Made by a program: the position numbers and the translations under genes. A model generated the notes under the pieces. It was not told the origin of the DNA, searched no databases, and worked only from the letters and a program-made list of their open reading frames with translations. A DNA stretch of 63,299 bases from a virus. Taxonomy: Duplodnaviria > Caudoviricetes. The stretch covers positions 1 to 63,299 of IMG/VR virus record IMGVR_UViG_3300009678_000063; one strand, given 5' to 3'. Each line of letters opens with the position of its first letter. The first letter of the stretch is position 1. Below, in pieces: positions 13,530 through 63,180 of the stretch.

Positions 13530-13867
13530 GCGAGCACGTCAAGGTCATCGAGACCGCACGACACCGCAACGGCAGCGGGGGCGCCCCGTTCTACGTGTCC
13601 CTCGTCCAGTGGGGTGCCGAAGAGGTCGGCGACGACCTGTTCGTGGCCATCAGTTTCCCTCCGGATGACCCGTACGGGACGCCGGACGAGCAGCGTGAGT
13701 ACCTGCGTGAGCACACGGCCGTCCTCAATGTCCGCCTGCTTGGCGAGCGGAACATCGGGTTCGCCATGGGCAACTCGTGGCGAGGGGCCGACCACGTGGG
13801 GCCATCCGTTGTCGAGACAATCGCCGCGGCCCACGAGTACGAGTTCAATCAGGAGGACCCGGAATGA
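13526..13867 (+). CDS. Conserved phage hypothetical protein
   Basis: HRNG..G.PFYV...NSWRGAD. Confidence 0.65.
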   Translation: MSEHVKVIETARHRNGSGGAPFYVSLVQWGAEEVGDDLFVAISFPPDDPYGTPDEQREYLREHTAVLNVRLLGERNIGFAMGNSWRGADHVGPSVVETIAAAHEYEFNQEDPE

Positions 13868-52897: not shown

Positions 52898-53095
52898 TCA
52901 GGCCTTCTGGATGGTCTTGGGGTCATTGGGCCACTTGACGGTAGAGCCACACCTGCGGCACGGTCCCTCAACGGAGCCGACCACTAGACGGTACAGGTCA
53001 CGGTGCTTGATGGCTAGGCGCGCTGTACCGTCCGAGGAGACTTCCACGTAACCGAACAGGGACCCACACTGGCACCTAACTGGTTCCGGTTTCAT
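52898..53095 (-). CDS. Small zinc-ribbon protein
   Basis: RCQCG...CRRCG. Confidence 0.55.
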   Translation of the reverse strand: MKPEPVRCQCGSLFGYVEVSSDGTARLAIKHRDLYRLVVGSVEGPCRRCGSTVKWPNDPKTIQKA

Positions 53096-54566
53096 GGCTC
53101 CAAGGCCCTCCCAAGAATCCCATGCGCACCGGGCGCCGAGAGTCTCCGTACAGTGCTAGGACGAGACTCCAAAAGTAGTCGTCCTTGTTGCCCGCAAACT
53201 TGTAGAAGTTCGCTTCGGTCTTCGTCCGGCGTATGCCGTGAATCTGTCTCGTCAAGTCCTGATGGTTGGGCCACGTTACGAGGCCCATTTGCATGTCACC
53301 CTTGAGGGTGGTAGCCCATCGCTCCTTGCGCTGGTTAGTGAAGACAACGCCCTCGATGTTTCCGCTTATCTCGCGCTTGGCGTCCTCAACGAACTTCTGG
53401 CCGACGCCGGTCTGGTCGATGGTGACACGTGCTGGATTCGTAGCGGCGATCAAGCGACGAAGGTACTCGAACTGCTCGTTGTACGGGTCCTGCGTGGCCT
53501 TCGTGAAGAGGACACGACGAGTAGACGAATCGTCAGGACCGGGTAGGGTCTCGACCACCGTAAACACGGTCTGGTCTCGGTCACGGGCCAAGTCCACCCC
53601 GATAGACAGTGAGCCTTCGGAACGGAAGAGGCCATTCCAGTCTCGCCAAATCTTCTGGTCGTGGTCCGTGCAGGACTGGATCAGGTCCCACGTGTAGTAG
53701 GCCGACATCTCATCCTCGAACTCGCACTCGTACTCAGTGCGGAATCCGACGGTGTCGTTACCGAACTCCTCGAAGATCGAGATGAGTTTGTCCGTGCCGT
53801 ACTGGCGGACGCGTTCCTCGGTGGTGAGTCCAGAGGCAAGTGCTAGTGCGTCGGGAAGCGCACCTTCGCGGACCATCGCGGAACACTCCCACCACGGGAC
53901 AAGGTGCCGCGAGTAGTTCGCGTAGGTCTGCTCTCCGGACCAGATGTCGAAGAACATGCCGGACTGCGCTAGCGGAGTAGAGACGATAGTGATTCGTGCG
54001 CCGCCCCGGGTGATGGCGGGAAGTGCGGCCCGGTACAACTTCTTCGCATCGCGAACGTGCGCGAACTCATCGAAGTAGATGTCCTTGCGGCCACCGCGGA
54101 TGGCGGAGGAGGCCGGCTGAGAGATGATGGCGCTCGTGTCGGGGGGGCGGTGGAACGAAATCTCGTTGTCCGCGTCGGTCCAAAGGATCGGCTTGAGGAC
54201 TGGGTCGGTCTCACGGAACTCGTCGCCGATGCTGTGGTACAGCGCTCGGGCGATGTCAACCTTGTCGCCCGCCTCCTTCTGGTTGATGGAGACGATGTTA
54301 GCCCGGTAGTTCCTCTGCGTCGCCGCTCGGAAGGTCGCTTCCGCCGACAGGACCGTCGAGAACCCGATCTGCCTCGACTTGTCCACTATCCGGTACGCTG
54401 ACTTGTCGTTCAGGAACCGAATCTGGTAGGTCTCCAACTTGGTCGGCTCGCCCTCCAAGGAGGTCAGTGTCTCCAACCAGACTGCCGGGTTGGTCGCCAA
54501 CAAGTACAGCAAGTCGTCCTCGGAGGTCTCGACTTGCCCAAACTTTGAGAAGCGGTTCTGGACCAT
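53076..54566 (-). CDS. terL: Terminase large subunit
   Basis: KSRQIGFS Walker A, YFDEFAH Walker B, VSTP, IGVDLAR, DQTGVG, DDYFWS. Confidence 0.95.
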   Translation of the reverse strand: MVQNRFSKFGQVETSEDDLLYLLATNPAVWLETLTSLEGEPTKLETYQIRFLNDKSAYRIVDKSRQIGFSTVLSAEATFRAATQRNYRANIVSINQKEAGDKVDIARALYHSIGDEFRETDPVLKPILWTDADNEISFHRPPDTSAIISQPASSAIRGGRKDIYFDEFAHVRDAKKLYRAALPAITRGGARITIVSTPLAQSGMFFDIWSGEQTYANYSRHLVPWWECSAMVREGALPDALALASGLTTEERVRQYGTDKLISIFEEFGNDTVGFRTEYECEFEDEMSAYYTWDLIQSCTDHDQKIWRDWNGLFRSEGSLSIGVDLARDRDQTVFTVVETLPGPDDSSTRRVLFTKATQDPYNEQFEYLRRLIAATNPARVTIDQTGVGQKFVEDAKREISGNIEGVVFTNQRKERWATTLKGDMQMGLVTWPNHQDLTRQIHGIRRTKTEANFYKFAGNKDDYFWSLVLALYGDSRRPVRMGFLGGPWSHETGTS

Positions 54567-55029
54567 CTGCCTTATCTTCCTCCCGCTTCTCGACCTGATG
54601 TCGGAGCGCAAGTAGGGAGTTGAGGACCTTGATGCGGTCAGTTACGTCCCTGCGGAAGTAAGACTCAACGTTGATTTCGCCATCGTCGCCGACGGCCGAG
54701 GTCATCTCGCCGATCATTGCCGGCATGAGGTTGCGCGATAGAATGAGGATCAGGGCGTCCAACTCGCGCTTGGTCGAGATTGCCTTGCCGTCTCGAATGA
54801 CACCACGAAGGTACGTGAAGTGCTCCGGCGGAACGGTGCCCTCCATCTTGAGGAGCATGGCGTCGGCCAGTTCAGTGGGGACCAGCGACTTCGGCTTGTT
54901 CTTCGAGCCCGGTGGGCGACCGCCACGACGGGTGGTCAGCGACTTCTCCCCGGCCTGATGAGTAGTGCGTGAAGCGCTCTCCGACCGACCCTCGGTGTCT
55001 CTAACGGCGGCAGCGGCTCTTGGCATCAT
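54298..55029 (-). CDS. Terminase small subunit candidate
   Basis: GGRPPGSKNK motif, directly upstream of and overlapping terL. Confidence 0.55.
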   Translation of the reverse strand: MMPRAAAAVRDTEGRSESASRTTHQAGEKSLTTRRGGRPPGSKNKPKSLVPTELADAMLLKMEGTVPPEHFTYLRGVIRDGKAISTKRELDALILILSRNLMPAMIGEMTSAVGDDGEINVESYFRRDVTDRIKVLNSLLALRHQVEKREEDKADGPEPLLKVWASRDLRGRLAVLVGDQPGSLVGDTDLLGGRADQVGDLPDSVPERQVSVPDSGQVEADRVLDGPVGGSDLPSGDAEELPG

Positions 55030-55044
55030 TTCTCCGGACATAGT

Positions 55045-55436
55045 GGGACCCCCTGCACCCGCGAGGGGAGGGGGTCCGATGGAGCGGTTGATCCGCGCGC
55101 TCAGGCGGTGAACGGCTGGACTTTCGTGTACCAGCACTCGGCGTACGAAGTACGGTAACAGTCCTTGTCAGGACTCCGAGACCCACGGTTGGGTTCCACC
55201 CACAGGTTCAGGCTCGTTAGGCCCTCCGCCGCGGTCCGTACTGTCAGCCCGGTGCCGCGTCGTTTACTGCTGCCCACGGTGCGATCCCTCCCTTCGTGAG
55301 GAGGGGTTCCGCCACGCTCCACGTCCTTTCGAGGGGACGCTTATCAAATGCAGCGGGCCATTTACGGGCTACTCACCCGAAGTGAGTTCCGTGGGGTGAC
55401 CCGCCAGTCACCCGAATATATCGGACCTTTCGGCCC
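55045..55436 (-). ncRNA. Unassigned ~390-nt structured RNA
   Basis: Serial hairpins with GAAA and cUUCGg loops immediately 3' of the last tRNA. Confidence 0.55.
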
Positions 55437-55437
55437 A

Positions 55438-55513
55438 TGGCTGCGTCTCAAGGGATCGAACCTTGGAATCTGCTGGTTCAAGGCCAGCCGCCTTACCGCT
55501 TGGCTAAGACGCA
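55438..55513 (-). tRNA. tRNA-Gln(UUG), C33
   Basis: Cloverleaf, loop CC-TTG-AA, CCA. Confidence 0.85.
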
Positions 55514-55514
55514 T

Positions 55515-55589
55515 TGGCGAGTCATCTCAGGCTCGAACTGAGAACCGGAAGGGTAAGAACCTTCTGCACCACCGTTGTGCTAATGACCC
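55515..55589 (-). tRNA. tRNA-Lys(CUU)
   Basis: Cloverleaf, TT-CTT-AC, CCA. Confidence 0.85.
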
Positions 55590-55590
55590 A

Positions 55591-55665
55591 TGGCTGCGAT
55601 GGCAGGACTCGAACCTGCAACAAGACGGGTAACAACCGCCGGCTCTGCCGTTGAACTACACCGCA
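55591..55665 (-). tRNA. tRNA-Asn(GUU)
   Basis: Cloverleaf, CCA. Confidence 0.9.
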
Positions 55666-55666
55666 A

Positions 55667-55740
55667 TGGACAGCGTGACGAGACTCGAACTCGCATACGT
55701 GGGGGTAAAAGCCCCGTGGCAACCGTTTGCCCACACGCCG
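55667..55740 (-). tRNA. tRNA-Lys(UUU)
   Basis: CT-TTT-AC, CCA. Confidence 0.8.
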
Positions 55741-55741
55741 A

Positions 55742-55816
55742 TGGAAGCGGAGAAAGGAATCGAACCTTCGACTTGGCGCGTATGAAGCGCCTGTTCTGCC
55801 ACTGAACTACTCAGCC
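55742..55816 (-). tRNA. tRNA-Met(CAU), elongator (Ile2 not excluded)
   Basis: TT-CAT-AC, CCA. Confidence 0.8.
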
Positions 55817-55818
55817 AT

Positions 55819-55896
55819 TGGTAGACGTATTAGGAGTTGAACCTACTCTTGTTCGGGATATAAGCCCGACGGCCACTACCGGCGACCACTACGTCC
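55819..55896 (-). tRNA. tRNA-Ile(UAU)
   Basis: CT-TAT-AT, A73, CCA. Confidence 0.8.
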
Positions 55897-55897
55897 A

Positions 55898-55973
55898 TGG
55901 TGCTATCCAAGGGACTCGAACCCCCGACGCGCAGTGCTTCAAACTGCCGTTCTACCTACTGAACTAAGATAGC
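55898..55973 (-). tRNA. tRNA-Phe(GAA)
   Basis: Cloverleaf, CCA. Confidence 0.9.
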
Positions 55974-55974
55974 G

Positions 55975-56238
55975 TGTAAGGCGTGTAGGAGAGTTACGCC
56001 GTCGCTTCCGCTTTCCGGAACGACCCAACCTGCCGGACAGGTCCCCTCCACCATCGCTAGGGAGTCCGAGTTTCTACACCTAGCGTACAGGCTTGTAAGT
56101 ACGCGACTGCCCACACTTACCGCCACCAGCCCCGCGAAGGGCGGGTGGTCCCTCTTCCCCGCGGGACAAGCCCTCGGTTTACAGACGGTCCACCATCAAG
56201 GCCGAGCAATCTCAGCGCTGCTTGGCAGTCGCGAATCA
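55975..56238 (-). ncRNA. Unassigned structured RNA(s), two closed domains
   Basis: CGCGACTGCC/GGCAGTCGCG and GTGTAG/CTACAC closing stems between tRNAs. Confidence 0.55.
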
Positions 56239-56239
56239 T

Positions 56240-56313
56240 TGGAGCACCTGCTAGGAATCAAACCTAGACCTCCACCCTTACAAGGGGCGTGTCCTGTCTT
56301 AGACGACAGGTGC
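56240..56313 (-). tRNA. tRNA-Thr(UGU)
   Basis: Cloverleaf, CCA. Confidence 0.85.
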
Positions 56314-56314
56314 A

Positions 56315-56391
56315 TGGCGGGGACCACGAGACTCGAACTCGCTGCCTCCGGCTTGACAAGCCGGTATCAATACCACTTAGACCTCATCCCC
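56315..56391 (-). tRNA. tRNA-Asp(GUC)
   Basis: Cloverleaf, CCA. Confidence 0.88.
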
Positions 56392-56392
56392 G

Positions 56393-56471
56393 TGGTGAAT
56401 GTTGTTGGACTCGAACCAACGGCCTTCTCCTTATCAGAGAGATGCACGCATACCAACCGTGCTCAACATCC
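56393..56471 (-). tRNA. tRNA-Ile(GAU)
   Basis: Cloverleaf, CCA. Confidence 0.88.
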
Positions 56472-56472
56472 T

Positions 56473-56548
56473 TGGAGCAGTAAACGAGACTCGAACTCGC
56501 GACCTCCTCCTTGGCAAGGAGGAACACTTCCAACTGTGCTTCTACTGC
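56473..56548 (-). tRNA. tRNA-Gly(GCC)
   Basis: Cloverleaf, CCA. Confidence 0.9.
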
Positions 56549-56549
56549 G

Positions 56550-56636
56550 TGGTACTCATGGTGGGAGTCGAACCCACAATCCCGCTAGGGCGCTTGCTTC
56601 TAAGGCAAGTCCGTATACCAGTTCCGGCACACGAGC
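56550..56636 (-). tRNA. tRNA-Leu(UAG)
   Basis: Long variable arm, CCA. Confidence 0.9.
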
Positions 56637-56638
56637 AT

Positions 56639-56716
56639 TGGTGCAATCCCCCGGACTCGAACCGGGACATAACTAGGTTCTCGACCTAGTCCCTCTACCA
56701 TTTGGGGTAGGACAGC
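56639..56716 (-). tRNA. tRNA-Leu(GAG), short variable loop, C33
   Basis: TC-GAG-AA, A73, CCA. Confidence 0.8.
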
Positions 56717-56718
56717 GT

Positions 56719-56794
56719 TGGCAGCGACCGCGGGACTTGGACCCGCTAGGACCGCCTTGAAAGGACGGCCGCTCGACCCTTTGCATTGGTCGCC
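56719..56794 (-). tRNA. tRNA-Glu(UUC), divergent T-loop
   Basis: CT-TTC-AA, T-loop TCCAAGT, CCA. Confidence 0.75.
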
Positions 56795-56795
56795 T

Positions 56796-56871
56796 TGGCT
56801 GGAACGGTAGGGCTCGAACCTACGATTACCGGGTTCAGAGCCCGGAGCCTTGCCAACTTGGCCACATTCCA
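56796..56871 (-). tRNA. tRNA-Gln(CUG)
   Basis: Cloverleaf, CCA. Confidence 0.92.
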
Positions 56872-56879
56872 ATGTGTAA

Positions 56880-56980
56880 TGGCGGGCTCGGCAACCGCAC
56901 TATCCCGGGCCCTCGCGCTAGCAGCATCCCCGGTTTCATGAGGCCGGTTTCCCCGTCGAGAAACATAGACCTCCGCTTCA
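56880..56980 (-). ncRNA. Unassigned CCA-ended structured RNA
   Basis: GCGG/CCGC terminal pairing + CCA, internal hairpins, no T-loop. Confidence 0.45.
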
Positions 56981-56984
56981 TTGA

Positions 56985-57317
56985 GCAGATAGGCTATAAG
57001 CCCCGTCCTGTGGACCTTGGTTCAAGCGCCTTGCGGCTCCCAACTGAACGACTGCCATCCACCTTGCTGTTCGATTGCTCGAACAATCCTTGCGTGCTTC
57101 TCCACCCCACCGAGCCTCGTCATAGGGCACTCGCACTTGCAACGCCTAGAGTTTACCCGTTTCACCCGAGCACTACCTCGGTTCGTCACTGTTGCACTAG
57201 TCCTACCCTCGCGGGCGCCGGCCGTTAGCCGGTAGGCTGGCTCTGGTTGCGGGGACTTTCCTCACTCACCGCGGGACAAGTCACCGAACGGATATGCGCG
57301 ACAGTCCACCTATCTAC
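56985..57317 (-). ncRNA. rnpB: RNase P RNA (reduced bacterial type A-like)
   Basis: GAGGAAAGTCCCC, AGTGCAACAG, GGGTGAAACGGGTAAAC, GGATGGCAGTC, ACAGGACGGGGCTTA; P1, P4, P5, P6 and P18 pair. Confidence 0.93.
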
Positions 57318-57323
57318 TGCTAC

Positions 57324-57343
57324 AGTATAGCACACCCTGTCAA
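57324..57343 (-). promoter_or_regulatory. Short-spacer promoter of rnpB
   Basis: TTGACA-gggtgtgc-TATACT ending 6 nt before P1. Confidence 0.7.
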
Positions 57344-57357
57344 GGACTGCAAACTGG

Positions 57358-57435
57358 TGGTCAACCTCGCGAGACTCGAACTCGCACGTGCTCCGGGTTT
57401 GAGCCGGAGGCCTCTGCCATTTGGGCTACAGGTTG
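57358..57435 (-). tRNA. tRNA-Leu(CAA), short variable loop
   Basis: CT-CAA-AC, A73, CCA. Confidence 0.82.
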
Positions 57436-57436
57436 G

Positions 57437-57512
57437 TGGTACCCGATGACGGACTCGAACCGCCGACACCTAGTATGTAACACTAGTGTTCTGGCCGCTG
57501 AACTAAACGGGC
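57437..57512 (-). tRNA. tRNA-Val(UAC)
   Basis: GT-TAC-AT, CCA. Confidence 0.88.
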
Positions 57513-57513
57513 T

Positions 57514-57589
57514 TGGTGCATCCTGCTGGACTCGAACCAGCGACCCCCACCATGTCAAGGTGGTGCGCTAACCGCTGCGCTAAGGAAGC
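57514..57589 (-). tRNA. tRNA-Val(GAC)
   Basis: Cloverleaf, CCA. Confidence 0.92.
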
Positions 57590-57590
57590 G

Positions 57591-57665
57591 TGGGGTGGAA
57601 CCAGAGAGTCGAACTCTGCTATCCGGGCTCACAACCCGGTGCCTCGCCACAAGGCTTGTAACACC
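57591..57665 (-). tRNA. tRNA-His(GUG)
   Basis: G-1/C73, CCA. Confidence 0.85.
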
Positions 57666-57667
57666 AT

Positions 57668-57743
57668 TGGCCCCAACGGTCAGACTCGAACTGACGGCCT
57701 AGTGTTTAGGAAACACTCGCGCTGTCCACTGCGCTACATCGGG
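57668..57743 (-). tRNA. tRNA-Arg(CCU)
   Basis: Cloverleaf, CCA. Confidence 0.9.
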
Positions 57744-57744
57744 A

Positions 57745-57819
57745 TGGCACCCTCGACTGGACTCGAACCAGTATCGTGCGGCTTAGAAGACCGTTGTTCA
57801 TCCGTTGAACTACGAAGGT
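57745..57819 (-). tRNA. tRNA-Arg(UCU)
   Basis: Cloverleaf, CCA. Confidence 0.9.
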
Positions 57820-57820
57820 A

Positions 57821-57877
57821 TGAATCGGCAGACGGAGTCGAACCGTCCGTGTCGCGAACACTCCCCAGTAACCGACC
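57821..57877 (-). ncRNA. 57-nt mini tRNA-like RNA
   Basis: Acceptor-like stem + perfect T-arm GACGG-TTCGACT-CCGTC, no D-stem, stunted anticodon arm. Confidence 0.6.
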
Positions 57878-57878
57878 A

Positions 57879-57952
57879 TGGAGACCACTACCGGACTCGA
57901 ACCGGTGTCCGCGGGTTTGCAAGCCGCTCCCTTGCCTCTCGGGCAAATGGTC
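57879..57952 (-). tRNA. tRNA-Cys(GCA)
   Basis: U73, CCA. Confidence 0.88.
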
Positions 57953-57953
57953 A

Positions 57954-58037
57954 TGTTGCAAGTGTGGTGGACCGCGGGTTCCACCCCCGGCCGCTCAGCG
58001 CGTGGAAAACGCAGACGGTAATGCCCACACACTCGCA
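57954..58037 (-). ncRNA. 84-nt three-way-junction RNA with complementary loops
   Basis: TGCGAGTGTG/CACACTTGCA stem; loops TTCCAC and GTGGAA. Confidence 0.55.
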
Positions 58038-58113
58038 TGGAGCGTCATACAGGATTTGAACCCGCGCGTTCTGCTTGGAAGGCAGACATGCTACCATTGA
58101 ACATCAATGACGC
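58038..58113 (-). tRNA. tRNA-Gly(UCC)
   Basis: Cloverleaf, CCA. Confidence 0.9.
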
Positions 58114-58114
58114 T

Positions 58115-58190
58115 TGGCACCGATGACAGGACTCGAACCCGCATGCTCCCTGCTTCGAAGGCAGGAGTTCATCCATTGAACTACATCGGT
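58115..58190 (-). tRNA. tRNA-Arg(UCG)
   Basis: Cloverleaf, CCA. Confidence 0.88.
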
Positions 58191-58191
58191 A

Positions 58192-58268
58192 TGGCTCGCC
58201 TCGTGAGACTCGAACTCACGGCCTCAGCCTTCGCAGGGCTGCGCTCTATCCACTGATGCTAGAGGCGA
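58192..58268 (-). tRNA. tRNA-Arg(GCG)
   Basis: CT-GCG-AA; D-stem TAGC-a-TCAG; CCA. Confidence 0.88.
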
Positions 58269-58269
58269 A

Positions 58270-58346
58270 TGGTGACGCCTACGGGGCTCGAACCCGTAAT
58301 CTCCTGACTGAGAATCAGGGGCCTTGACCGATTTGGCTAAGGCGCC
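58270..58346 (-). tRNA. tRNA-Glu(CUC)
   Basis: Cloverleaf, CCA. Confidence 0.9.
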
Positions 58347-58347
58347 A

Positions 58348-58423
58348 TGGAGCCGAAGGAGGGACTCGAACCCTCGACCTCATCCTTACCAAGGATGTGC
58401 ACTGCCGACTGTGCTACTTAGGC
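58348..58423 (-). tRNA. tRNA-Thr(GGU)
   Basis: Cloverleaf, CCA. Confidence 0.92.
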
Positions 58424-58424
58424 G

Positions 58425-58499
58425 TGGAGCCAACCCTCGGACTCGAACCGAGAACCTACTGCTTACGAAGCAGTTGCGCTGCCATTGCGCTAGGAAGGC
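58425..58499 (-). tRNA. tRNA-Thr(CGU)
   Basis: Cloverleaf, CCA. Confidence 0.9.
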
Positions 58500-58501
58500 G
58501 T

Positions 58502-58587
58502 TGGTGTTGCCAGTGAGAGTCGAACTCACTCACCCCGTAGGGGCCAGTTTTACAGACTGGCTTGGGAACCGTCCCGCTGTCGTCAAC
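58502..58587 (-). tRNA. tRNA-Tyr(GUA)
   Basis: Long variable arm, CCA. Confidence 0.85.
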
Positions 58588-58588
58588 A

Positions 58589-58664
58589 TGGTGGAGATAC
58601 AGGGAATCGAACCCTGACTTTCTGCTTGCAAGGCAGTTGTGCAGCCCACTATCACTACACCCCC
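58589..58664 (-). tRNA. tRNA-Ala(UGC)
   Basis: G3:U70, CCA. Confidence 0.9.
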
Positions 58665-58665
58665 A

Positions 58666-58741
58666 TGGTCAGACTGGAAGGACTCGAACCTTCGACTTCC
58701 CACTCCCGAAGCGGGCACGCTACCTACTGCGCTACAATCTG
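58666..58741 (-). tRNA. tRNA-Pro(CGG)
   Basis: Cloverleaf, CCA. Confidence 0.92.
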
Positions 58742-58742
58742 A

Positions 58743-58818
58743 TGGTCAGAAAGACAGGCCTCGAACCTGCGACCTCCGCACCCCCAGTGCGGGACTCTAC
58801 CAACTGAGTTACTTTCTG
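58743..58818 (-). tRNA. tRNA-Pro(GGG)
   Basis: Cloverleaf, CCA. Confidence 0.92.
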
Positions 58819-58819
58819 A

Positions 58820-58895
58820 TGGTCAGAGCAGTGAGACTCGAACTCACGACCTCCCGATCCCAAATCGGGTGGACTACCTACTGTCCTACACTCTG
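58820..58895 (-). tRNA. tRNA-Pro(UGG)
   Basis: Cloverleaf, CCA. Confidence 0.92.
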
Positions 58896-58896
58896 A

Positions 58897-58981
58897 TGGC
58901 GGATGCTAGAGGACTCGAACCCCTACGGGTGTAACCCCATCACGGCTTTCAAGGCCGATAAGTGCTCCTATACGAGCATCC
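58897..58981 (-). tRNA. tRNA-Ser(UGA)
   Basis: Long variable arm, reduced D-arm, G73, CCA. Confidence 0.82.
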
Positions 58982-58982
58982 A

Positions 58983-59067
58983 TGGCGGATAGTAAGGGAC
59001 TCGAACCCCTACACCTGTAACGGCCTCACCGCTTTCGAGGCGGAGTAGCACACCAATGCGACTATCC
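58983..59067 (-). tRNA. tRNA-Ser(CGA)
   Basis: Long variable arm, reduced D-arm, CCA. Confidence 0.82.
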
Positions 59068-59068
59068 A

Positions 59069-59153
59069 TGGCGGAAGGTACAGGACTCGAACCTGTACGA
59101 CTTTGAGGTCATCACCGCTTTCCAAGCGACTTAGTACGCCAATACGACCTTCC
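59069..59153 (-). tRNA. tRNA-Ser(GGA)
   Basis: Long variable arm, reduced D-arm, CCA. Confidence 0.82.
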
Positions 59154-59154
59154 G

Positions 59155-59239
59155 TGGCGGAAGCGACAGGACTCGAACCTGTACGGGTGTTACCCCATCA
59201 CCCCTTAGCAGGGGGCTTACTGCGCCAGTAGGCGCTTCC
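59155..59239 (-). tRNA. tRNA-Ser(GCU)
   Basis: Long variable arm, reduced D-arm, CCA. Confidence 0.82.
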
Positions 59240-59240
59240 G

Positions 59241-59418
59241 TGGAGCGGTAGGCCGTCTCTGACCACGCCTATCCGCCTAGTCCCCCGCGCGCTATAGTCA
59301 GAATCGACCGGGGACACTCCGCCACCCGAAGACGGCGGAGGGGCAGGGACTCGGCCTGAGGCACACCCCGGGCACAACGCCCTGCGCGCGTACTCGGGAA
59401 ACCAAAGGCCAATCATTA
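59241..59418 (-). ncRNA. Unassigned ~178-nt CCA-ended structured RNA
   Basis: CGCGCGC/GCGCGCG and CCGGGG/CCCCGG stems, cUUCGg hairpin, terminal hairpin + TCCA. Confidence 0.5.
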
Positions 59419-59419
59419 T

Positions 59420-59496
59420 TGGGTGCGCCAGCGGGACTCGAACCACGCTTCTCCGGGTTATGAGCCCAGTGAGGAAACCTTTCCTCCCATAGCACA
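59420..59496 (-). tRNA. Initiator-type tRNA-fMet(CAU)
   Basis: GGG-CT-CAT-AA-CCC anticodon arm, CCA. Confidence 0.82.
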
Positions 59497-59569
59497 TGGC
59501 AGGCCCGGCGAGACTCGAACTCGCGGCTAAGCGTTTTGGAGACGCCCGCAGCACCGTTGCCTCGAACCT
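59497..59569 (-). tRNA. tRNA-Trp(CCA)
   Basis: CT-CCA-AA, G73, CCA. Confidence 0.85.
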
Positions 59570-59574
59570 GTAGT

Positions 59575-59672
59575 TAGCACCGGCCCACACATCCATCCGG
59601 ACCGAGGAGCGACCCCAATCGTGATGGAAACCTACCGCCGTTCGGGTTGCGAACCCACCCTGACCGGTGCTG
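59575..59672 (-). ncRNA. Unassigned structured RNA at the head of the array
   Basis: AGCACCGG/CCGGTGCT closing stem with internal hairpins. Confidence 0.45.
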
Positions 59673-59763
59673 TAATACCGCTTACCGAATGCGGTGCTCT
59701 TCGACGGGATACATTTCATAGGCCCCAGTTGGCCAACCGGTTATCTCTCAGAGCGGAGCCGCT

Positions 59764-59783
59764 AGTGTACCACACGATGTCAA
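59764..59783 (-). promoter_or_regulatory. Short-spacer promoter of the tRNA array
   Basis: TTGACA-tcgtgtgg-TACACT. Confidence 0.65.
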
Positions 59784-59859
59784 ATCCTGCAACATCGAAA
59801 GGCAGAAAACGTAAAGTGCCCCTACTTACTAGCCAACTTGGGGACCAAATCCTCCCGTT

Positions 59860-60513
59860 TTACCTCGAACTTCGCTGATTGGCGTCAACTTGAGCACGAA
59901 CATCCGCGAAGATCGTCGGGAACCGAGACTCTAGGGTTTCGAGGACTTCCATCATGATCGAGCGCATTTCGGGCTGCGCCGACGTGTGACAGCGGAGTCT
60001 GAGGACGTGCCGCCACTCACGGAGGTTCATCTTCGCGATAATGCGGGTACGGGTGGCGTTAGGCAAGACATATCGAGCGATCTGCGACTTGACCCCTAGA
60101 CGCTTCAACTCTAGGTAGGCCGCGTGAGCCCCAACCATCGCGGATCGGTAGGCGACCAGCGCGTCCTCTCCGGCCGCGGAGACTTCCGGTGGCAGGTACG
60201 TCAGGTCGATGGGGTCCTCGTCGTCGTACTTGACGTACCGCTGGCTCTCCTGCTGGTAGGATGCAATCCGGTGTCGAACGAGTTCGTGACTCACGACCCG
60301 GCTACACTCGATCAGGAAGACGACATCCACCATCTCAAGCATAGACTCTTCGCCGGCCGCGATCCAGCGACCGATAATGGCCGAGTCACCCATCTTGGCT
60401 ATGGACTTTGGACCGTAATCCCAACGGCCCGAGTACTCGATGATGTCCTCCGGTGAGGTCAAGTCGGGCAATAGCGGGGTCGTCAGCGCTATCAGGGTAA
60501 CGCGAGGCTGCAC
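59860..60513 (-). CDS. thyX: Flavin-dependent thymidylate synthase
   Basis: SR..SHELVRHRIASYQQESQRY, ARYVLPNA, NLREW.H...LR, AQPEMR. Confidence 0.93.
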   Translation of the reverse strand: MQPRVTLIALTTPLLPDLTSPEDIIEYSGRWDYGPKSIAKMGDSAIIGRWIAAGEESMLEMVDVVFLIECSRVVSHELVRHRIASYQQESQRYVKYDDEDPIDLTYLPPEVSAAGEDALVAYRSAMVGAHAAYLELKRLGVKSQIARYVLPNATRTRIIAKMNLREWRHVLRLRCHTSAQPEMRSIMMEVLETLESRFPTIFADVRAQVDANQRSSR

Positions 60514-60660
60514 TACAGTAGCAGGAACGCGAAGACCAGAACAAACCACGCTATCGCCAGCAGGGCGACCATGGTCATCACTAGTGCCACGATAAGGAAC
60601 CACGCCGCGCGGGCGAGGAACAGCAGCGTGTTCTCTATGGCCAACCATAGGCCTGATTGA

Positions 60661-60864: not shown

Positions 60865-63180
60865 CTAGCACCGACTGTAGTCGCACGACACGCACTTCTC
60901 ACACCCCTCTTCGTACTTTAGCGATGCCTGATGGCAAGACGGACAGATGTCGTAGGTCGCGCGATTGACCGGCGACGAGCCCTCGATGACCGGCGACGTA
61001 CCGGCGTTGAGGGCCGTGAGGGCGACACCTATGGCATGGGGTACGGCGCGGTTGAGGTTGCCGTTACCGCCGACACCCTCCAACTGATTAGCCACACCGC
61101 CAACTGTCGCACCGTGACGGAGTGCCAATGAGGCCAGACGACCGAGGGCCTCGGTCATGGATGAGAGGTCGGAGCCCGACCTGCCGACATTGACGAACAG
61201 TTCAACTGGGCGACCCGAGGCGTCATGGTTCAGGGTGATAAAGGCGGAACCAGCGCGTGTTGCGGCCTCGACCGTCACGCCGGCCAATGACGCTGGACGA
61301 AGGAAGTTGTACTCATCCGGTTCGGGGGCGGGCTCTGGCTCACGCGAGAGCACCTGAGCGCGGCCGCTCCCGTCCCGGAAGTACGCCACACCCTTGAGGC
61401 CTGAGTCGTAGGCCAGCCTGTAGGCCTTGTCCACGTCCTCGACAGTATGCGAGTTCGGACCATTGATGGTCTTCGATACGGATGAGTCGATGTTGCGCTG
61501 CACGGCAGCCTGCATCTTGATGTGCTGCTCGACGGTGACCTCATTAGCGGTAACCGCGTAGGCGCTCCCGTACTTCGAGACGGCCGGCGAGAACACCTTA
61601 TGGGTGCCCGTACGGTCCGTCCTAATGTACTCGGTATCGAACAGCGGTTCAATGCCGGAGTTCACGCCGGCTAGGAGGCTCGTCGTGCCGGTGGGCGCCT
61701 GCGTGAGCAGGAAGATGTTCCGAAGACCATTCTTGCGAATCTGGTCATCGAGGAACGGGTCATCGAGGCCGCTGAGGAATGGTCGTCCCGCCATGTCCTC
61801 CGACCAGTCCGGAGCCGGTCCGTACCGCCTAGCGAGGTCAATGGAGGACTCCACGGCCGCGGTGCGCATGTCGGAGAACACGGTATCCACGAAGTTCACC
61901 GCCTCATCGGACCCATACTTGATACCGAGCCCCATCAGGGCATCGGCTAGGCCCATGACGCCGAGACCGACACGGCGCAGGCGCTTCTGAATCCGTTCGT
62001 TCTCAGGGATGAAGTAGTGATTCTCGTCAACGACGCGGTCAAGGAATCGAATAGCGGACCCGACATCTTCCTTGAATCGCTGCCAGTCGAACCACGGGGG
62101 CTCGTAGTCCTCAGCCGTAACGTAGGCGTCGAGGTTCATCGCCCCAAGATTGCAGACAGAGTAGGCCCCAAGGCCCTGCTCACCGCATGGGTTGACCGAG
62201 ATAATCCGCTCTACGCCTCGACCAGTTGATTGAGCATTGTAGCGGCCGAGGAATACAACTCCGGGCTCTCCACTAGCCCACGCAGCCTCGACGATTGCTC
62301 GCCATACTTCTCGTGCGGGACGGGAACCGTGAGAGACAACGAGACCTCCACCCGCCTTCCATCCTGCAAGGTCACCGTCCCACCGACTGTTGTACTGAGG
62401 GTCACTTGTTTCGGGGAACTCGAAAACCCAGTTGCCGCCCTCTCGGACAGCATCCATGAACTCATCTGAAATCGCGATAGAGACGTTGGCATTCGTGATG
62501 GCCTCGTAGTTGCGCTTGGCATCAATGAACTCTAGCAGGTCCGGGTGCCAATCGTCCAGCATGAACATGGCCGCCCCGCGGCGTGAACCCCCCTGCTCGA
62601 CCACGCCGACTGCGCGGGAAGCGACGTCCATCCACGATACCGGTCCGGAGGTCGTCCCGTTCACGCGCTTGAGGTAGGTTCCCTTCGGACGCAGCACGGA
62701 CCAGTTGATTCCCACTCCGCCGCCACGGGACATGATGTCCACCATCAGGCCGATGGTGTCAAAGATGGCCTCACGCGAGTCGGAGCCACTGTCATCGCCG
62801 GTGAGGTCGCGCACATCGGCGCGCATGGACTCAACCTCGTCGGGGGTGGCGTCATCGGGGAACGTGAGAAGCACCACGTCATTTCGCATGCCACGCTTAG
62901 AGCGACGAAGTCGCGTCTCCACCGGTATGACGTAGCAGTTGTAGTAGGTGACCTCGGCGTCCACGCCGGCGCCGGACAGGATACGTCCGCCGGGAACGAA
63001 CTTGAATCGGTCAAGGAGGTCACGGAACTCTGCCCGTTCAGCGGAACCGCGGCCGATTGCCGCGGATACGCGATCCCACATCTCTTCAACAGTGGATTCG
63101 ACGGGCTGGCCGTCGGCGCCCTTACGGGCGTAGCGGTCAAGGAACACCGTCCTCTGATGGTCAGTTAGCGGAGTCGTCAA
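60865..63180 (-). CDS. nrdJ: Class II (B12-dependent) ribonucleotide reductase
   Basis: PGGRIL, NCYV, GGGVG, GGSRRGA, NPCGEQ, CNLG, APTGT, SVSKTIN, YFRDG, TSCPD-like domain + Zn ribbon; no nrdB seen. Confidence 0.92.
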   Translation of the reverse strand: MTTPLTDHQRTVFLDRYARKGADGQPVESTVEEMWDRVSAAIGRGSAERAEFRDLLDRFKFVPGGRILSGAGVDAEVTYYNCYVIPVETRLRRSKRGMRNDVVLLTFPDDATPDEVESMRADVRDLTGDDSGSDSREAIFDTIGLMVDIMSRGGGVGINWSVLRPKGTYLKRVNGTTSGPVSWMDVASRAVGVVEQGGSRRGAAMFMLDDWHPDLLEFIDAKRNYEAITNANVSIAISDEFMDAVREGGNWVFEFPETSDPQYNSRWDGDLAGWKAGGGLVVSHGSRPAREVWRAIVEAAWASGEPGVVFLGRYNAQSTGRGVERIISVNPCGEQGLGAYSVCNLGAMNLDAYVTAEDYEPPWFDWQRFKEDVGSAIRFLDRVVDENHYFIPENERIQKRLRRVGLGVMGLADALMGLGIKYGSDEAVNFVDTVFSDMRTAAVESSIDLARRYGPAPDWSEDMAGRPFLSGLDDPFLDDQIRKNGLRNIFLLTQAPTGTTSLLAGVNSGIEPLFDTEYIRTDRTGTHKVFSPAVSKYGSAYAVTANEVTVEQHIKMQAAVQRNIDSSVSKTINGPNSHTVEDVDKAYRLAYDSGLKGVAYFRDGSGRAQVLSREPEPAPEPDEYNFLRPASLAGVTVEAATRAGSAFITLNHDASGRPVELFVNVGRSGSDLSSMTEALGRLASLALRHGATVGGVANQLEGVGGNGNLNRAVPHAIGVALTALNAGTSPVIEGSSPVNRATYDICPSCHQASLKYEEGCEKCVSCDYSRC

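What the first reader, a model, noticed from the sequence alone, without database searches (positions are those of the whole stretch)
55045..59783. Candidate new system: RNase P-punctuated polycistron releasing tRNAs and about seven unknown ncRNAs
Seen: 39 tRNAs all with encoded CCA, nearly all separated by only 1-2 nt. Structured non-tRNA units are slotted in with similarly tight spacing (55045-55436, 55975-56238, 56880-56980, 57821-57877, 57954-58037, 59241-59418, 59575-59672). Two end in CCA and two in TCA/ACA. Inference: one RNase P cut before each tRNA also defines the 3' end of the preceding unit, so the tRNAs act as punctuation that frees a set of novel RNAs. They could be decoys for tRNA-targeting defences or ribosome/RNAP modulators.
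Basis: partly seen in the sequence, partly recalled or inferred. Interest (0 to 1): 0.88.

Follow-up and report, generated by a model that had tools for sequence, protein, structure and literature searches.

The report
Phage tRNA operon with embedded RNAs
An uncultured phage's 39-gene tRNA operon also carries its own RNase P ribozyme gene, one newly recognised conserved folded RNA and a stripped-down tRNA look-alike, packed so that tRNA-trimming cuts should free them as in phage T4, while most of the other proposed RNAs lack support.

Summary
The array is real: 39 of 39 minus-strand tRNA genes (59569-55438) encode CCA, and all 33 direct tRNA-tRNA junctions are 0-3 nt.

The gaps are a mixed set, not seven unknown ncRNAs.
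- 56981-57317 is a class A RNase P RNA (140.5 bits, cut-off 100) with its own promoter.
- 55977-56096, inside unit 55975-56238, is a new five-helix RNA. It occurs in 13 related arrays with strong covariation and has no Rfam match.
- 57821-57877 is an anticodon-less tRNA-like RNA with one clear homologue and compensatory changes.
- 59570-59760 is the operon leader.
- 55042-55437 is the trailer and terminase 5' UTR, with a sub-threshold manA match.
- Units 59241-59418, 57954-58037 and 56872-56980 have no homologue or other support.

A metatranscriptome holds contigs identical to the leader, the 56046-56343 stretch, RNase P RNA and the trailer.

Across 11 arrays, 55 of 68 non-tRNA units end in NCA plus 1-2 nt, against an 11% background. 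This fits release by RNase P cuts, but no cut is shown.

The closest precedent is the T4 tRNA cluster with RNAC and RNAD. The scan has noted similar arrays on other DNA.

The parts
59764..59792 (-). Promoter-like site of the array: TTGCAG, 17 nt, TACACT
   Evidence: Read from the sequence. It has the same design as the site before RNase P RNA. The scan tool did not list it because its first hexamer matches only 3 of 6.
59570..59760 (-).
   Evidence: Fold z-score is -2.0. There is no homologue in relatives, which go from promoter almost straight to tRNA-Ser. An RNA-library contig identical to 59579-59745 has depth 19.3.
59420..59569 (-). tRNA-Trp(CCA) and a CAT-anticodon tRNA that abuts it with 0 nt between
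59240..59419 (-). Unit of 180 nt that ends in a hairpin plus CCA; unsupported as a conserved RNA
   Evidence: Fold z-score is -1.65. No homologue was found. In a near-identical DNA variant, 2 of 3 changes at paired sites break the predicted long-range helix.
58038..59239 (-). 15 tRNA genes (Ser x4, Pro x3, Ala, Tyr, Thr x2, Glu, Arg x2, Gly)
57953..58037 (-). Unit of 85 nt: long closing stem, two small hairpins, ACA tail; lineage-specific
   Evidence: Fold z-score is -2.7. It gives no tRNA hit at E<=1 or with ARAGORN down to 80% thresholds. No homologue was found.
57879..57952 (-). tRNA-Cys(GCA)
57821..57877 (-). 57-nt anticodon-less tRNA-like RNA: 6-bp acceptor-like stem, small hairpin, canonical T-arm, TCA tail
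   Evidence: The homologue is L053:5647-5701, with local score 40 against a shuffle maximum of 25 and nhmmer E=2e-15. One compensatory pair was counted by the tool and one more in the acceptor stem by eye.
57358..57819 (-). 6 tRNA genes (Arg x2, His, Val x2, Leu CAA)
57324..57352 (-). Promoter-like site for RNase P RNA: TTGCAG, 17 nt, TATACT; the RNA's first base is 7 nt after the -10 box
   Evidence: The scan tool lists it (as TTTGCA, 18 nt, TATACT; 9 of 12 matches, TG before the -10). Sequence read.
56981..57317 (-). Phage-encoded bacterial class A RNase P RNA lacking a 43-position stretch of the family model
   Evidence: RF00010 scores 140.5 bits against a gathering score of 100, covering model positions 1-367. 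The syntenic copy in relatives reaches the cut-off in 6 of 9 loci searched. An RNA-library contig is identical to 57000-57282.
56872..56980 (-). 109-nt insertion between RNase P RNA and tRNA-Gln(CTG), ending in ACA; unsupported
   Evidence: Fold z-score is 0.26. In relatives RNase P RNA runs almost straight into tRNA-Gln. No homologue was found.
56240..56871 (-). 8 tRNA genes (Gln CTG, Glu TTC, Leu x2, Gly, Ile, Asp, Thr TGT)
56097..56239 (-). Stem-closed domain upstream of the core RNA; lineage-specific
   Evidence: Fold z-score is -2.7. No significant homologue was found. An RNA-library contig identical to 56046-56343 spans it together with tRNA-Thr.
55977..56096 (-). Conserved ~120-nt five-helix RNA ('array core RNA'), a new family
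   Evidence: There are 13 distinct sequences, always after tRNA-Thr(TGT). Covariation: 89.7% of cells paired against 68.3% in shuffles, and 19 of 27 pairs changed on both sides. No Rfam match at E<=1.
55438..55973 (-). 7 tRNA genes (Phe, Ile TAT, Met, Lys x2, Asn, Gln TTG)
55042..55437 (-). 3' trailer of the array and 5' UTR of the next ORF (ATG at 55041). It contains a manA-like fold at 55105-55339 and a terminal G+C hairpin at about 55048-55084.
   Evidence: RF01745 scores 29.6 bits against a gathering score of 55.2, E=6.6e-6 on 441 bases. Fold z-score is -2.4. An RNA-library contig identical to 55121-55423 has depth 21.3. In a variant, 3 of 3 changes at paired sites keep or improve the pair.

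Best explanation
This is the tRNA operon of an uncultured tailed phage whose record is about 57% complete. It lies between the nucleotide-metabolism genes (RNR, ThyX) and the terminase and portal genes.

Transcription probably starts at two similar promoter-like sites. One lies before the leader. The other lies directly before the phage's own class A RNase P RNA, whose first base would be the transcript start.

All 39 tRNAs carry an encoded CCA and sit 0-3 nt apart. A single RNase P cut at each tRNA 5' end would therefore mature that tRNA and free whatever lies upstream with only 1-2 extra bases. 3' exonucleases would then trim these back to an NCA end.

Besides tRNAs, the cargo released this way has three tiers.
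1. Two conserved RNAs: a ~120-nt five-helix RNA kept in 13 related arrays, and a 57-nt tRNA-like RNA without an anticodon arm.
2. The structured leader, and a structured trailer that is also the 5' UTR of the terminase operon and weakly resembles the phage-associated manA motif.
3. Three lineage-specific fillers with no evidence of function.

Shown: the genes, the spacing, the NCA ends, conservation and covariation, and the presence of four stretches in an RNA library.

Inferred: co-transcription, RNase P cleavage, exonuclease trimming, and any function of the RNAs.
For: Array and spacing.

RNase P RNA.
- RF00010 scores 140.5 bits (cut-off 100) over the full model.
- A promoter-like site ends 6 nt before the RNA's first base.
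- Syntenic copies between tRNA-Leu(CAA) and tRNA-Gln(CTG) reach the cut-off in 6 of 9 relatives searched. They are found at lower scores or by nhmmer in L002, L013, L020 and L053.

Core RNA.
- It has 13 distinct sequences in the same position.
- RNAalifold on an unfitted MAFFT alignment of 10 sequences predicts 21 pairs, 14 of them with changes on both sides.
- On the model-fitted alignment of 13 sequences, 89.7% of 331 cells pair, against 68.3 +/- 1.7% in shuffles. 19 of 27 pairs change on both sides against 11.9 +/- 1.5. The covariation score is 0.511 against 0.180. 0 of 500 shuffles reach any of these values.
- Slid controls give 28-42% pairing and covariation scores of 0.04-0.08.
- Frequent G-U pairs (9 and 10 sequences at two positions) place the fold on the tRNA strand.

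tRNA-like mini-RNA: the L053 homologue and its compensatory changes. Other anticodon-less minis with a T-arm occur in L011 and L020, and a similar unit with a less canonical T-loop in L002, read by eye.

NCA rule: 55 of 68 non-tRNA units in 11 arrays end in CA plus 1-2 nt (ACA 27, TCA 12, CCA 12, GCA 4). The figure at internal positions is 11.3%.

RNA library X3 holds contigs with 0 differences to 59579-59745, 57000-57282, 56046-56343 and 55121-55423.

Literature.
- RNase P alone separates some E. coli polycistronic tRNA transcripts (PMC2190699 and PMC7049720; search listing and abstract openings).
- T4 has rnaD 1 nt after tRNA-Arg and rnaC 6 nt further on, annotated as small stable RNAs. Their function is still unknown (PMC9697503, passages).
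Against: - No RNA end, cut site or strand is shown. All runs laid were assembled contigs, which cannot show ends. The tool warns that DNA can be present in an RNA library, and I could not lay a silent control stretch because the cap is one call.
- One RNA-library contig (56046-56343) runs unbroken through tRNA-Thr into tRNA-Asp. Processing at those junctions is therefore not complete, or that contig comes from DNA.
- RNase P RNA has its own promoter-like site, and in L020 the core RNA follows a TTGACA-17-TACAAT site. At least some units may be separate transcripts rather than pieces of one polycistron.
- The leader unit does not end in NCA.
- Six of the eight non-tRNA stretches have no homologue in relatives.
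- The covariation alignment was fitted to a structure derived from the same sequences, which favours that structure.
- The tRNA-like mini family has only two clear members. A pattern scan of IMG/VR found no more.
Confidence: 0.7

Rival explanations
1. Most of the non-tRNA intervals are evolutionary debris: decayed tRNA genes, insertion scars and spacers. They are transcribed and cut out only as by-products and have no function of their own. NCA ends and acceptor-like closing stems are leftovers of tRNA ancestry.
For: - Units 59241-59418, 57954-58037, 56872-56980, the leader, domain 56097-56239 and the trailer have no homologue among 132 non-tRNA segments of related arrays.
- Related arrays have no unit at the positions of 56872-56980 and 57821-57877.
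- Fold z-scores are 0.26 for 56872-56980 and -1.65 for 59241-59418.
- A near-identical variant breaks 2 of 3 changed paired sites of the predicted 59241-59418 helix.
- 57954-58037 reads by eye as a 7-bp acceptor stem, one unpaired base and ACA, like a worn tRNA.
Against: - It cannot hold for the core RNA, where 19 of 27 pairs covary.
- It fits poorly for the 57-nt mini-RNA, which is kept at about three quarters identity with compensatory changes across phages whose terminases are 62% identical.
- RNase P RNA gaps also end in ACA or TCA, and they are not tRNA remnants.
- In the trailer, 3 of 3 variant changes at paired sites keep the pair.
Confidence: 0.4
2. The core RNA and the leader are cis-acting structured 5' leaders of tRNA sub-operons. 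Each follows its own promoter and controls or stabilises transcription of the tRNAs downstream. They are not free-standing trans-acting RNAs.
For: - A -10-like hexamer lies directly 5' of the core RNA in every relative examined. L020 has a full TTGACA-17-TACAAT site there.
- In 5 of the 11 arrays listed (window, L004, L010, L011, L020) the core runs straight into tRNA-Phe. In L002, L003, L007, L009, L012 and L013 about 110-125 nt lie between.
- The window's leader follows a promoter-like site and runs into tRNA-Trp.
- Relatives carry further promoter-like modules inside their arrays.
Against: - The 3-bp helix P1, whose middle pair covaries (G-C in 9, C-G in 3, A-U in 1), starts only 2-4 nt after the -10-like hexamer. 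A transcript started there would lack its 5' strand.
- The window itself has no -35-like hexamer before the core.
- Six arrays have a second conserved module between the core and the next tRNA.
Confidence: 0.2
3. The units, above all the tRNA-like minis, are decoys or sponges for host tRNA-targeting defences or for tRNA-binding enzymes.
For: - Anticodon-less tRNA look-alikes with acceptor stem and T-arm recur in the window, L053, L011 and L020. L002 has a similar unit with a less canonical T-loop.
- They keep the parts that tRNA-processing enzymes read, and lack the anticodon loop that anticodon nucleases cut. This is an inference.
Against: No test here bears on it. A mimic without an anticodon arm would not be expected to engage anticodon nucleases (inference).
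Confidence: 0.1

Closest known systems
Phage T4 tRNA region with the small stable RNAs RNAC (species 1) and RNAD (species 2)
   Same: Non-tRNA stable RNAs sit in the same orientation directly after tRNA genes. rnaD starts 1 nt after tRNA-Arg and rnaC 6 nt after rnaD. rnaC carries a T-arm-like hairpin near its 3' end, and a CA lies at or just past each annotated 3' end. Their function is still unknown (PMC9697503, passages read).
   Different: T4 has 8 tRNAs and 2 such RNAs and no RNase P RNA gene in that stretch. Here there are 39 tRNAs, a phage RNase P RNA and different RNAs. The core-RNA model finds nothing in the T4 region; the best match scores 4.9 bits at E=0.52 with filters off.
RNase P-dependent separation of E. 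coli polycistronic tRNA transcripts (valV-valW, leuQ-leuP-leuV and others)
   Same: Closely spaced tRNAs with encoded CCA are separated by RNase P cuts, followed by 3' exonuclease trimming (PMC2190699 and PMC7049720; search listing and abstract openings only).
   Different: Those operons are host-encoded, short, and do not carry non-tRNA cargo or an RNase P RNA gene. Cleavage here is inferred, not shown.
Plant-mitochondrial t-elements and the tRNA-punctuation idea
   Same: tRNA-like structures act as cutting signals for RNase P and/or RNase Z and define the ends of neighbouring RNAs (PMC1920247, abstract read). The 57-nt mini-RNA has that kind of shape.
   Different: t-elements flank mRNAs in an organelle. 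Here the neighbours are tRNAs and small RNAs in a phage. No processing data exist for this locus.
manA RNA motif (Rfam RF01745)
   Same: It is a phage-associated multi-stem RNA usually found in 5' UTRs (PMC2864571, passages read). The trailer at 55105-55339 matches the whole model and lies in the 5' UTR of the next ORF.
   Different: The score is 29.6 bits against a gathering score of 55.2. No match was found at E<=0.5 in the seven related loci searched whole, which include their regions after the last tRNA. The known hosts (marine cyanophages, gamma-proteobacteria) are unlike this G+C-rich groundwater and sediment phage.
Bacterial class A RNase P RNA (Rfam RF00010)
   Same: A full-length match above the curated cut-off, placed among its own substrates.
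   Different: It is encoded by a phage and lacks a 43-position stretch of the model. No RNase P protein gene (PF00825) was found in the window or in the complete 111-kb relative. No match was found in 50,697 GenBank phage records by blastn.

Membership tests
Bacterial RNase P RNA class A (RF00010), for 56981-57317 | Score at or above Rfam's gathering score over the whole model | tested here: met
   140.5 bits against 100, model positions 1-367 of 367, E=4.7e-44.
Bacterial RNase P RNA class A (RF00010), for 56981-57317 | Catalytic activity on pre-tRNA, alone or with a host RNase P protein | not testable with these tools
   It needs an in vitro cleavage assay. No phage rnpA gene was found.
manA RNA (RF01745), for 55105-55339 | Score at or above Rfam's gathering score | tested here: not met
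   29.6 bits against 55.2, although E=6.6e-6 on the 441 bases searched and the whole model is aligned.
manA RNA (RF01745), for 55105-55339 | Position in a 5' UTR of a phage or bacterial gene | tested here: met
   It lies between the last tRNA (55438) and the ATG at 55041 of the ORF before the large terminase.
tRNA (RF00005), for units 57954-58037 and 57821-57877 | Cloverleaf with anticodon arm recognised by tRNA models | tested here: not met
   Neither unit gives an RF00005 match at E<=1. ARAGORN lowered to 80% thresholds finds nothing in 57954-58037. For 57821-57877 it finds only an aberrant call with a 4-letter anticodon, at 57822-57895, overlapping that unit.
Small stable RNAs of phage tRNA clusters (T4 RNAC/RNAD kind) | A non-tRNA gene in the same orientation abutting tRNA genes within a few bases | tested here: met
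   Window units are 1 nt from the next tRNA. T4 rnaD is 1 nt from tRNA-Arg.
Small stable RNAs of phage tRNA clusters (T4 RNAC/RNAD kind) | Accumulates as a discrete stable RNA during infection | tested here: inconclusive
   Identical contigs occur in one RNA library for four stretches, but contigs show no ends and DNA carry-over is not excluded.
Small stable RNAs of phage tRNA clusters (T4 RNAC/RNAD kind) | Sequence or structure homology to T4 RNAC or RNAD | tested here: not met
   The core-RNA model run against the T4 tRNA region gives a best match of 4.9 bits at E=0.52. The other units were not compared.
New 'array core RNA' family (model R1), for 55977-56096 | Five helices supported by covariation, with conserved loops | tested here: met
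   The window scores 70.2 bits against R1, but it is one of the training sequences. The same five helices form in 13 of 13 sequences under constrained folding.

The most novel reading that the evidence does not exclude
The ~120-nt core RNA is a trans-acting partner of the phage's own tRNA-maturation system rather than passive cargo.

It is inherited together with the phage RNase P RNA in 11 of 11 arrays that cover both positions. Both are absent from the two more distant arrays, L023 and L025.

Its most conserved loop (ACUCGA, five invariant bases) is the exact complement of the T-loop UCGAGU. The 7-mer UUCGAGU is the T-loop of 24 of 36 tRNAs in the window and of 28 of 31 in L003.

The RNA might pair with unfolded or nascent pre-tRNAs or with tRNA fragments. 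It might also occupy a host factor that reads T-arms, tuning how the 39 tRNAs are processed or protected.

Together with the NCA-end rule, this would make the array a self-contained RNA-processing module carried by a virus.
Probability: 0.1. Interest if true: 0.8.

Novelty: new variant of a known kind. Interest (0 to 1): 0.55.

Why it matters
Phage tRNA clusters are usually read only as codon-usage or anti-defence aids. This one shows a whole clade of ~110-kb environmental phages carrying, in one tightly packed operon, a near-complete tRNA set, the ribozyme that processes it, and at least one further conserved folded RNA of unknown role.

The T4 RNAs of the same kind, RNAC and RNAD, are still called RNAs 'of yet unknown functions' in a 2022 study (PMC9697503). 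A second, well-covarying family with a clear structural model gives a new handle on what such cargo does. So does a simple sequence rule: every element ends in NCA just before the next tRNA.

It also shows that only part of a first-glance list of 'structured units' in such arrays survives comparison.

Tried and rejected
- Megablast of the whole array against 50,697 GenBank phage records gave only a 37-base tRNA-like match in Listeria phage contigs. The terminase has no relative above 29% identity there. There is therefore no cultured relative to borrow annotation from.
- Blastn of the RNase P RNA against the same records gave no match.
- Blastn and nhmmer of each window unit against the 26 related IMG/VR loci gave hits only for RNase P RNA and the 3' half of unit 55975-56238.
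- Terminase-based scans of JGI metagenome contigs and of GTDB genomes gave no relative closer than 67%. Closer terminases (77%, 77%, 73%, 69%) exist in other assemblies, but their contigs could not be fetched.
- Two IMG/VR pattern scans for the core RNA returned, beyond the terminase clade, only chance or protein-coding matches. None of the 15 new loci of the second scan matched model R1 at E<=0.001.
- An IMG/VR pattern scan for the 57-nt mini-RNA gave 0 stretches.
- I considered 5S rRNA, tmRNA, SRP RNA, 6S RNA and T-box leaders for the units. None matched at E<=1 in Rfam, ARAGORN found no tmRNA, and the helices do not fit those families.
- PHROGs found nothing for the 247-aa ORF after the array or for the 73-aa ORF inside the trailer.
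- Runs: the RNA library X3 gave no identical contig over 59241-59418, 57954-58037, 57821-57877 or 56872-56980. X7 and X4 gave mostly short, diverged tRNA matches from other organisms. I draw no conclusion from missing cover.
- Literature searches for a phage-encoded RNase P RNA found no paper describing one. One search used the terms 'RNase P RNA', phage, 'tRNA array' and rnpB. One search used the phrase 'phage-encoded RNase P' and gave 0 papers. One search used RNaseP_bact_a with phage and gave 6 papers, none on phage genes judging by title and abstract opening. PMC6582537 (passages read) describes horizontally acquired tRNA clusters with GOLLD RNA in mycobacteria, not a phage RNase P RNA.
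- Supplementary files were not opened. Additional file 3 of PMC2864571, which lists manA contexts, could show whether manA RNAs commonly lie next to tRNAs.

Full report
**What the window is.** The window is a whole IMG/VR virus record of 63,299 bases with no terminal repeats, estimated 57% complete.
- All genes around the finding run on the minus strand. Ribonucleotide reductase (60865-63180) and ThyX (59860-60648) lie upstream. An unknown 247-aa ORF starting at 55041, the large terminase (53076-54611 as listed) and the portal (51352-52695) lie downstream.
- There is no cultured relative. The best GenBank phage terminase is 29% identical, and the array DNA matches nothing but a 37-base tRNA-like stretch.
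- One related record (L020's) is a complete 111,050-base genome with direct terminal repeats.

**Check of the observation.**
- ARAGORN finds 36 minus-strand tRNAs. Three more are recovered at relaxed thresholds: CAT at 59420-59496, Tyr at 58502-58587 and Glu TTC at 56719-56794. Rfam also hits the CAT tRNA as tRNA and the Tyr as a weak tRNA-Sec match.
- All 39 end in CCA. The script gave 37 of 39. The other two were one-base boundary slips of mine, and both read CCA in the printed sequence.
- The 33 direct tRNA-tRNA junctions are 0 nt (1), 1 nt (27), 2 nt (4) and 3 nt (1).
- By folding energy they are only modestly unusual, with z-scores from -2.7 to +0.26.
- The ends read CCA once, ACA three times and TCA once, not two and two.

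**RNase P RNA and promoters.**
- The 486-nt gap between tRNA-Leu(CAA) and tRNA-Gln(CTG) holds a class A RNase P RNA at 56981-57317. It scores 140.5 bits against a cut-off of 100 over the full model, with one 43-position stretch of the model missing.
- A promoter-like site lies at 57352-57324. The scan tool lists it as TTTGCA-18-TATACT, and I read TTGCAG-17-TATACT. It ends 6 nt before the RNA's first base.
- The same design, TTGCAG-17-TACACT, stands at 59792-59764 before the leader. I read that one by eye, and it falls below the tool's threshold.
- No RNase P protein gene (PF00825) was found in the window or in the complete relative. The ribozyme would therefore have to work with a host protein; this is an inference.

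**Relatives.**
- Terminase-based scans gave 26 IMG/VR loci and 19 metagenome loci at 45-67% identity.
- Among the 14 loci examined, eleven hold syntenic tRNA arrays. L008 is a short contig fragment with only the last four tRNAs, and L023 and L025 hold non-syntenic arrays.
- Two gaps recur. Leu(CAA) to Gln(CTG) is 356-451 nt, and longer in L020. Thr(TGT) to Phe or Met is 169-331 nt.
- The first gap is RNase P RNA. It is above cut-off in 6 of 9 loci searched. It is found at lower score or by nhmmer in L002, L013 (cut by the contig end), L020 and L053.

**The conserved core RNA.**
- Only the 3' half of unit 55975-56238 is conserved. A profile finds it in 19 loci, which collapse to 13 distinct sequences. 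It always lies after tRNA-Thr(TGT).
- All 13 sequences can form the same five helices.
  - P1 is a 3-bp helix that encloses hairpin P2, whose loop holds the invariant ACUCG.
  - A purine-rich joiner follows (CAAGGGG or GGAGG).
  - P3 is a hairpin of variable length.
  - P4 is a hairpin with a GAAA loop.
  - P5 is a hairpin whose 11-13-nt loop holds (A)ACUCUCCUA.
- RNAalifold on an unfitted MAFFT alignment of the first 10 sequences predicts 21 pairs, 14 of them with changes on both sides.
- I built a covariance model and re-aligned the 13 sequences to it. The pair count then gives:
  - 89.7% of 331 cells paired, against 68.3 +/- 1.7% in shuffles;
  - 19 of 27 pairs changed on both sides, against 11.9 +/- 1.5;
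  - a covariation score of 0.511 against 0.180;
  - 0 of 500 shuffles reaching any of the observed values;
  - slid controls at 28-42% paired and 0.04-0.08.
- That alignment was fitted to a structure drawn from the same sequences, which favours it. Even so, single pairs show three or four standard pair types. Frequent G-U pairs put the fold on the tRNA strand.
- Rfam has no match at E<=1.
- Two IMG/VR pattern scans found no member outside the terminase clade.
- The model finds nothing in the T4 tRNA region.
- The joiner could pair with the P5 loop (for example AGGGG with CUCCU). Both are nearly invariant, so covariation cannot test this.

**The 57-nt tRNA-like RNA.**
- Unit 57821-57877 has a 6-bp acceptor-like stem, a small hairpin, a canonical T-arm and a TCA tail, but no anticodon arm.
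- L053 carries a homologue between tRNA-Arg(CCT) and tRNA-His. Its local score is 40 against a shuffle maximum of 25, and nhmmer gives E=2e-15.
- The two are identical in about three quarters of the aligned columns. They differ by a U-A to C-G swap in the small hairpin, counted by the tool. By eye there is a second U-A to C-G swap in the acceptor stem.
- Other anticodon-less minis with a T-arm occur in L011 (56 nt, with an ACCA end) and L020. L002 has a similar unit whose T-loop is less canonical, read by eye. None of these has detectable sequence similarity.
- A pattern scan of IMG/VR found no further member.

**The other units.**
- Local alignment against 132 non-tRNA segments of the related arrays gave nothing above shuffled queries for the leader, 59240-59419, 57953-58037, 56872-56980, 56100-56239 or the trailer.
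- In relatives the array promoter sits almost directly before tRNA-Ser, so the leader and 59240-59419 have no positional counterpart. RNase P RNA runs almost straight into tRNA-Gln there, so 56872-56980 is an insertion.
- The trailer matches the manA model over its full length at 29.6 bits against a cut-off of 55.2 (E=6.6e-6 on 441 bases). None of seven related loci searched whole shows this match at E<=0.5.
- manA is a phage-associated candidate cis-regulator of 5' UTRs (PMC2864571, passages; PMC9964418, passages). That suits a position just before the terminase operon.

**Public runs.**
- A DNA run, X2, holds a near-identical phage with 0.87 of the sampled words.
- Its listed differences fall in the trailer (4), in 56100-56239 (3), in 59241-59418 (5) and in several tRNAs. 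None is listed in the core RNA, RNase P RNA, the leader, 57954-58037, 57821-57877 or 56872-56980. Nine further differences were not shown.
- I mapped the differences on the minimum-energy folds.
  - In the trailer, 3 of 3 changes at paired sites turn G-U into G-C or A-U.
  - In 56100-56239, the one paired change gives G-U.
  - In 59241-59418, 2 of 3 paired changes break the long-range helix.
- The metatranscriptome X3 holds contigs with no difference to four stretches:
  - 59579-59745 (167 nt, depth 19.3);
  - 57000-57282 (283 nt, depth 7.7);
  - 56046-56343 (298 nt, depth 6.5);
  - 55121-55423 (303 nt, depth 21.3).
- The first of these reaches from 19 nt after the -10 box to 10 nt before tRNA-Trp. 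The last begins 15 nt after the last tRNA.
- Contigs show no ends, strand or level, and DNA may be present in such a library. I could not lay a control stretch.
- The 56046-56343 contig crosses tRNA-Thr and enters tRNA-Asp. Those junctions are therefore not always cut, or that contig is DNA.

**A rule for the 3' ends.** In 11 arrays, 55 of 68 distinct non-tRNA units of 35 nt or more end in CA followed by 1-2 bases and then the next tRNA.
- My crude filter had already removed evident unrecognised tRNAs.
- The ends are ACA 27, TCA 12, CCA 12 and GCA 4. Some of the 12 CCA cases are probably tRNAs that ARAGORN missed.
- The same test at 13,674 internal positions gives 11.3%.
- The gaps that hold RNase P RNA obey the rule too.
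- The spacer is 1 nt in the window and mostly 2 nt (AT) in relatives. The CA therefore keeps its place relative to the upstream unit, not relative to the cut site.
- I read it as a tRNA-like 3' end at which exonuclease trimming would stop. That reading rests on recalled knowledge of RNase T and RNase PH, not on a call.

**A loop complementary to the T-loop.** The T-loop 7-mer is TTCGAGT in 24 of 36 window tRNAs, 28 of 31 in L003, 28 of 34 in L004 and 26 of 38 in L053. The invariant P2 loop of the core RNA is its exact complement. This may be chance or ancestry, and I did not test it further.

**How it most likely works.** See Best explanation. The steps shown and the steps inferred are marked there.
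- RNase P alone can separate closely packed tRNAs in E. coli operons (PMC2190699, PMC7049720; listing and abstract openings).
- T4 has the same layout on a small scale, with tRNA-Arg, then rnaD after 1 nt, then rnaC after 6 nt.
- tRNA-like t-elements are thought to direct RNase P/Z cuts in plant mitochondria (PMC1920247, abstract).

**Novelty.**
- The kind of system is known from T4, so the claim of a 'candidate new system' is too strong.
- Three things are new here: the core RNA family, the NCA-end rule across a phage clade, and the joint carriage with a phage RNase P RNA.
- My three searches found no paper on phage RNase P RNA genes.
- Earlier notes of this scan, unchecked by me, report phage RNase P RNAs in tRNA arrays (192 notes) and tRNA-punctuated RNA arrays (53 notes) on other DNA. 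Within this project the theme is therefore not new.

**Limits.**
- All run evidence is from contigs.
- The host is unknown.
- The two-member mini-RNA family and the manA likeness are weak points.

Noticed in passing
L003:3132-3249, L012:3523-3641, L013:1248-1372, L020:7390-7505 (also L007, L009): A second conserved module of about 115 nt lies between the core RNA and tRNA-Phe in six related arrays. It starts ATGAGCGTCGATGCGG and ends GCAGCGC. It is absent from the window at this place.
   Followed up: no
L003:2968-3015, L010:8679-8731, L056:770-825, L060:217-256: A small conserved hairpin (GTCCG...CGGAC) followed by AAACC lies just upstream of the core RNA in several relatives, and downstream of it in L060. 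The window's domain 56097-56239 has a similar GGAC...GTAAACCGA stretch.
   Followed up: partly
L020:636-734, L004:5386-5479, L002:1966-2065, L053:4379-4443: Related arrays carry internal promoter-like modules between tRNAs (TTGACA or TTGCAG, 17 nt, TACGAT or TATGCT). These arrays are therefore probably not single transcription units.
   Followed up: no
window 56471-56473: The near-identical phage in DNA run X2 has 82 extra letters between tRNA-Ile(GAT) and tRNA-Gly(GCC), the size of one more tRNA or unit. Array content therefore varies between strains.
   Followed up: no
L020:1979-2052: The complete 111-kb relative carries a tRNA with anticodon CTA (ARAGORN calls it Pyl), a possible amber suppressor. 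L010:6522-6608 is called tRNA-Phe(AAA) at 87 nt, which looks aberrant.
   Followed up: no
L004:6415-6753: The 339-nt gap between tRNA-Arg(TCT) and tRNA-Arg(CCT) starts with a hairpin and a GGGAGG, and then reads like a small ORF inserted in the array. Not analysed.
   Followed up: no
window 59240-59419, 56872-56980, 56097-56239; L085:2172 (T4 rnaD): Many non-tRNA units begin, right after the preceding CCA or CA, with (A)ATGA(G/T/A). In the window this holds for 59419, 56980 and 56239, and it holds for several units in relatives. T4 rnaD also begins ATGAG one base after tRNA-Arg. It may be a processing or start signal, or chance.
   Followed up: no
window 59420-59496: The CAT-anticodon tRNA follows tRNA-Trp with no spacer. 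Read by eye, it starts with a U1-A72 pair and has two G-U pairs in the acceptor stem. Its identity (initiator, elongator Met or Ile2) is open.
   Followed up: no
window 54298-55041 and 53076-54611: The 247-aa ORF after the array overlaps the listed large-terminase ORF. The collection's own version of the terminase is 496 aa (P0001), which still leaves an overlap of roughly 270 nt. One of the two gene models is probably wrong.
   Followed up: no
window 57341-57336 and 59781-59776: Both promoter-like sites also contain a perfect TTGACA only 6 nt (7 nt at the leader site) before the -10 box, as another first-stage note says. Relatives (L002, L004) have ordinary 17-nt spacing to TTGCAA or TTGACA. 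I therefore read TTGCAG at 17 nt as the -35 element.
   Followed up: partly
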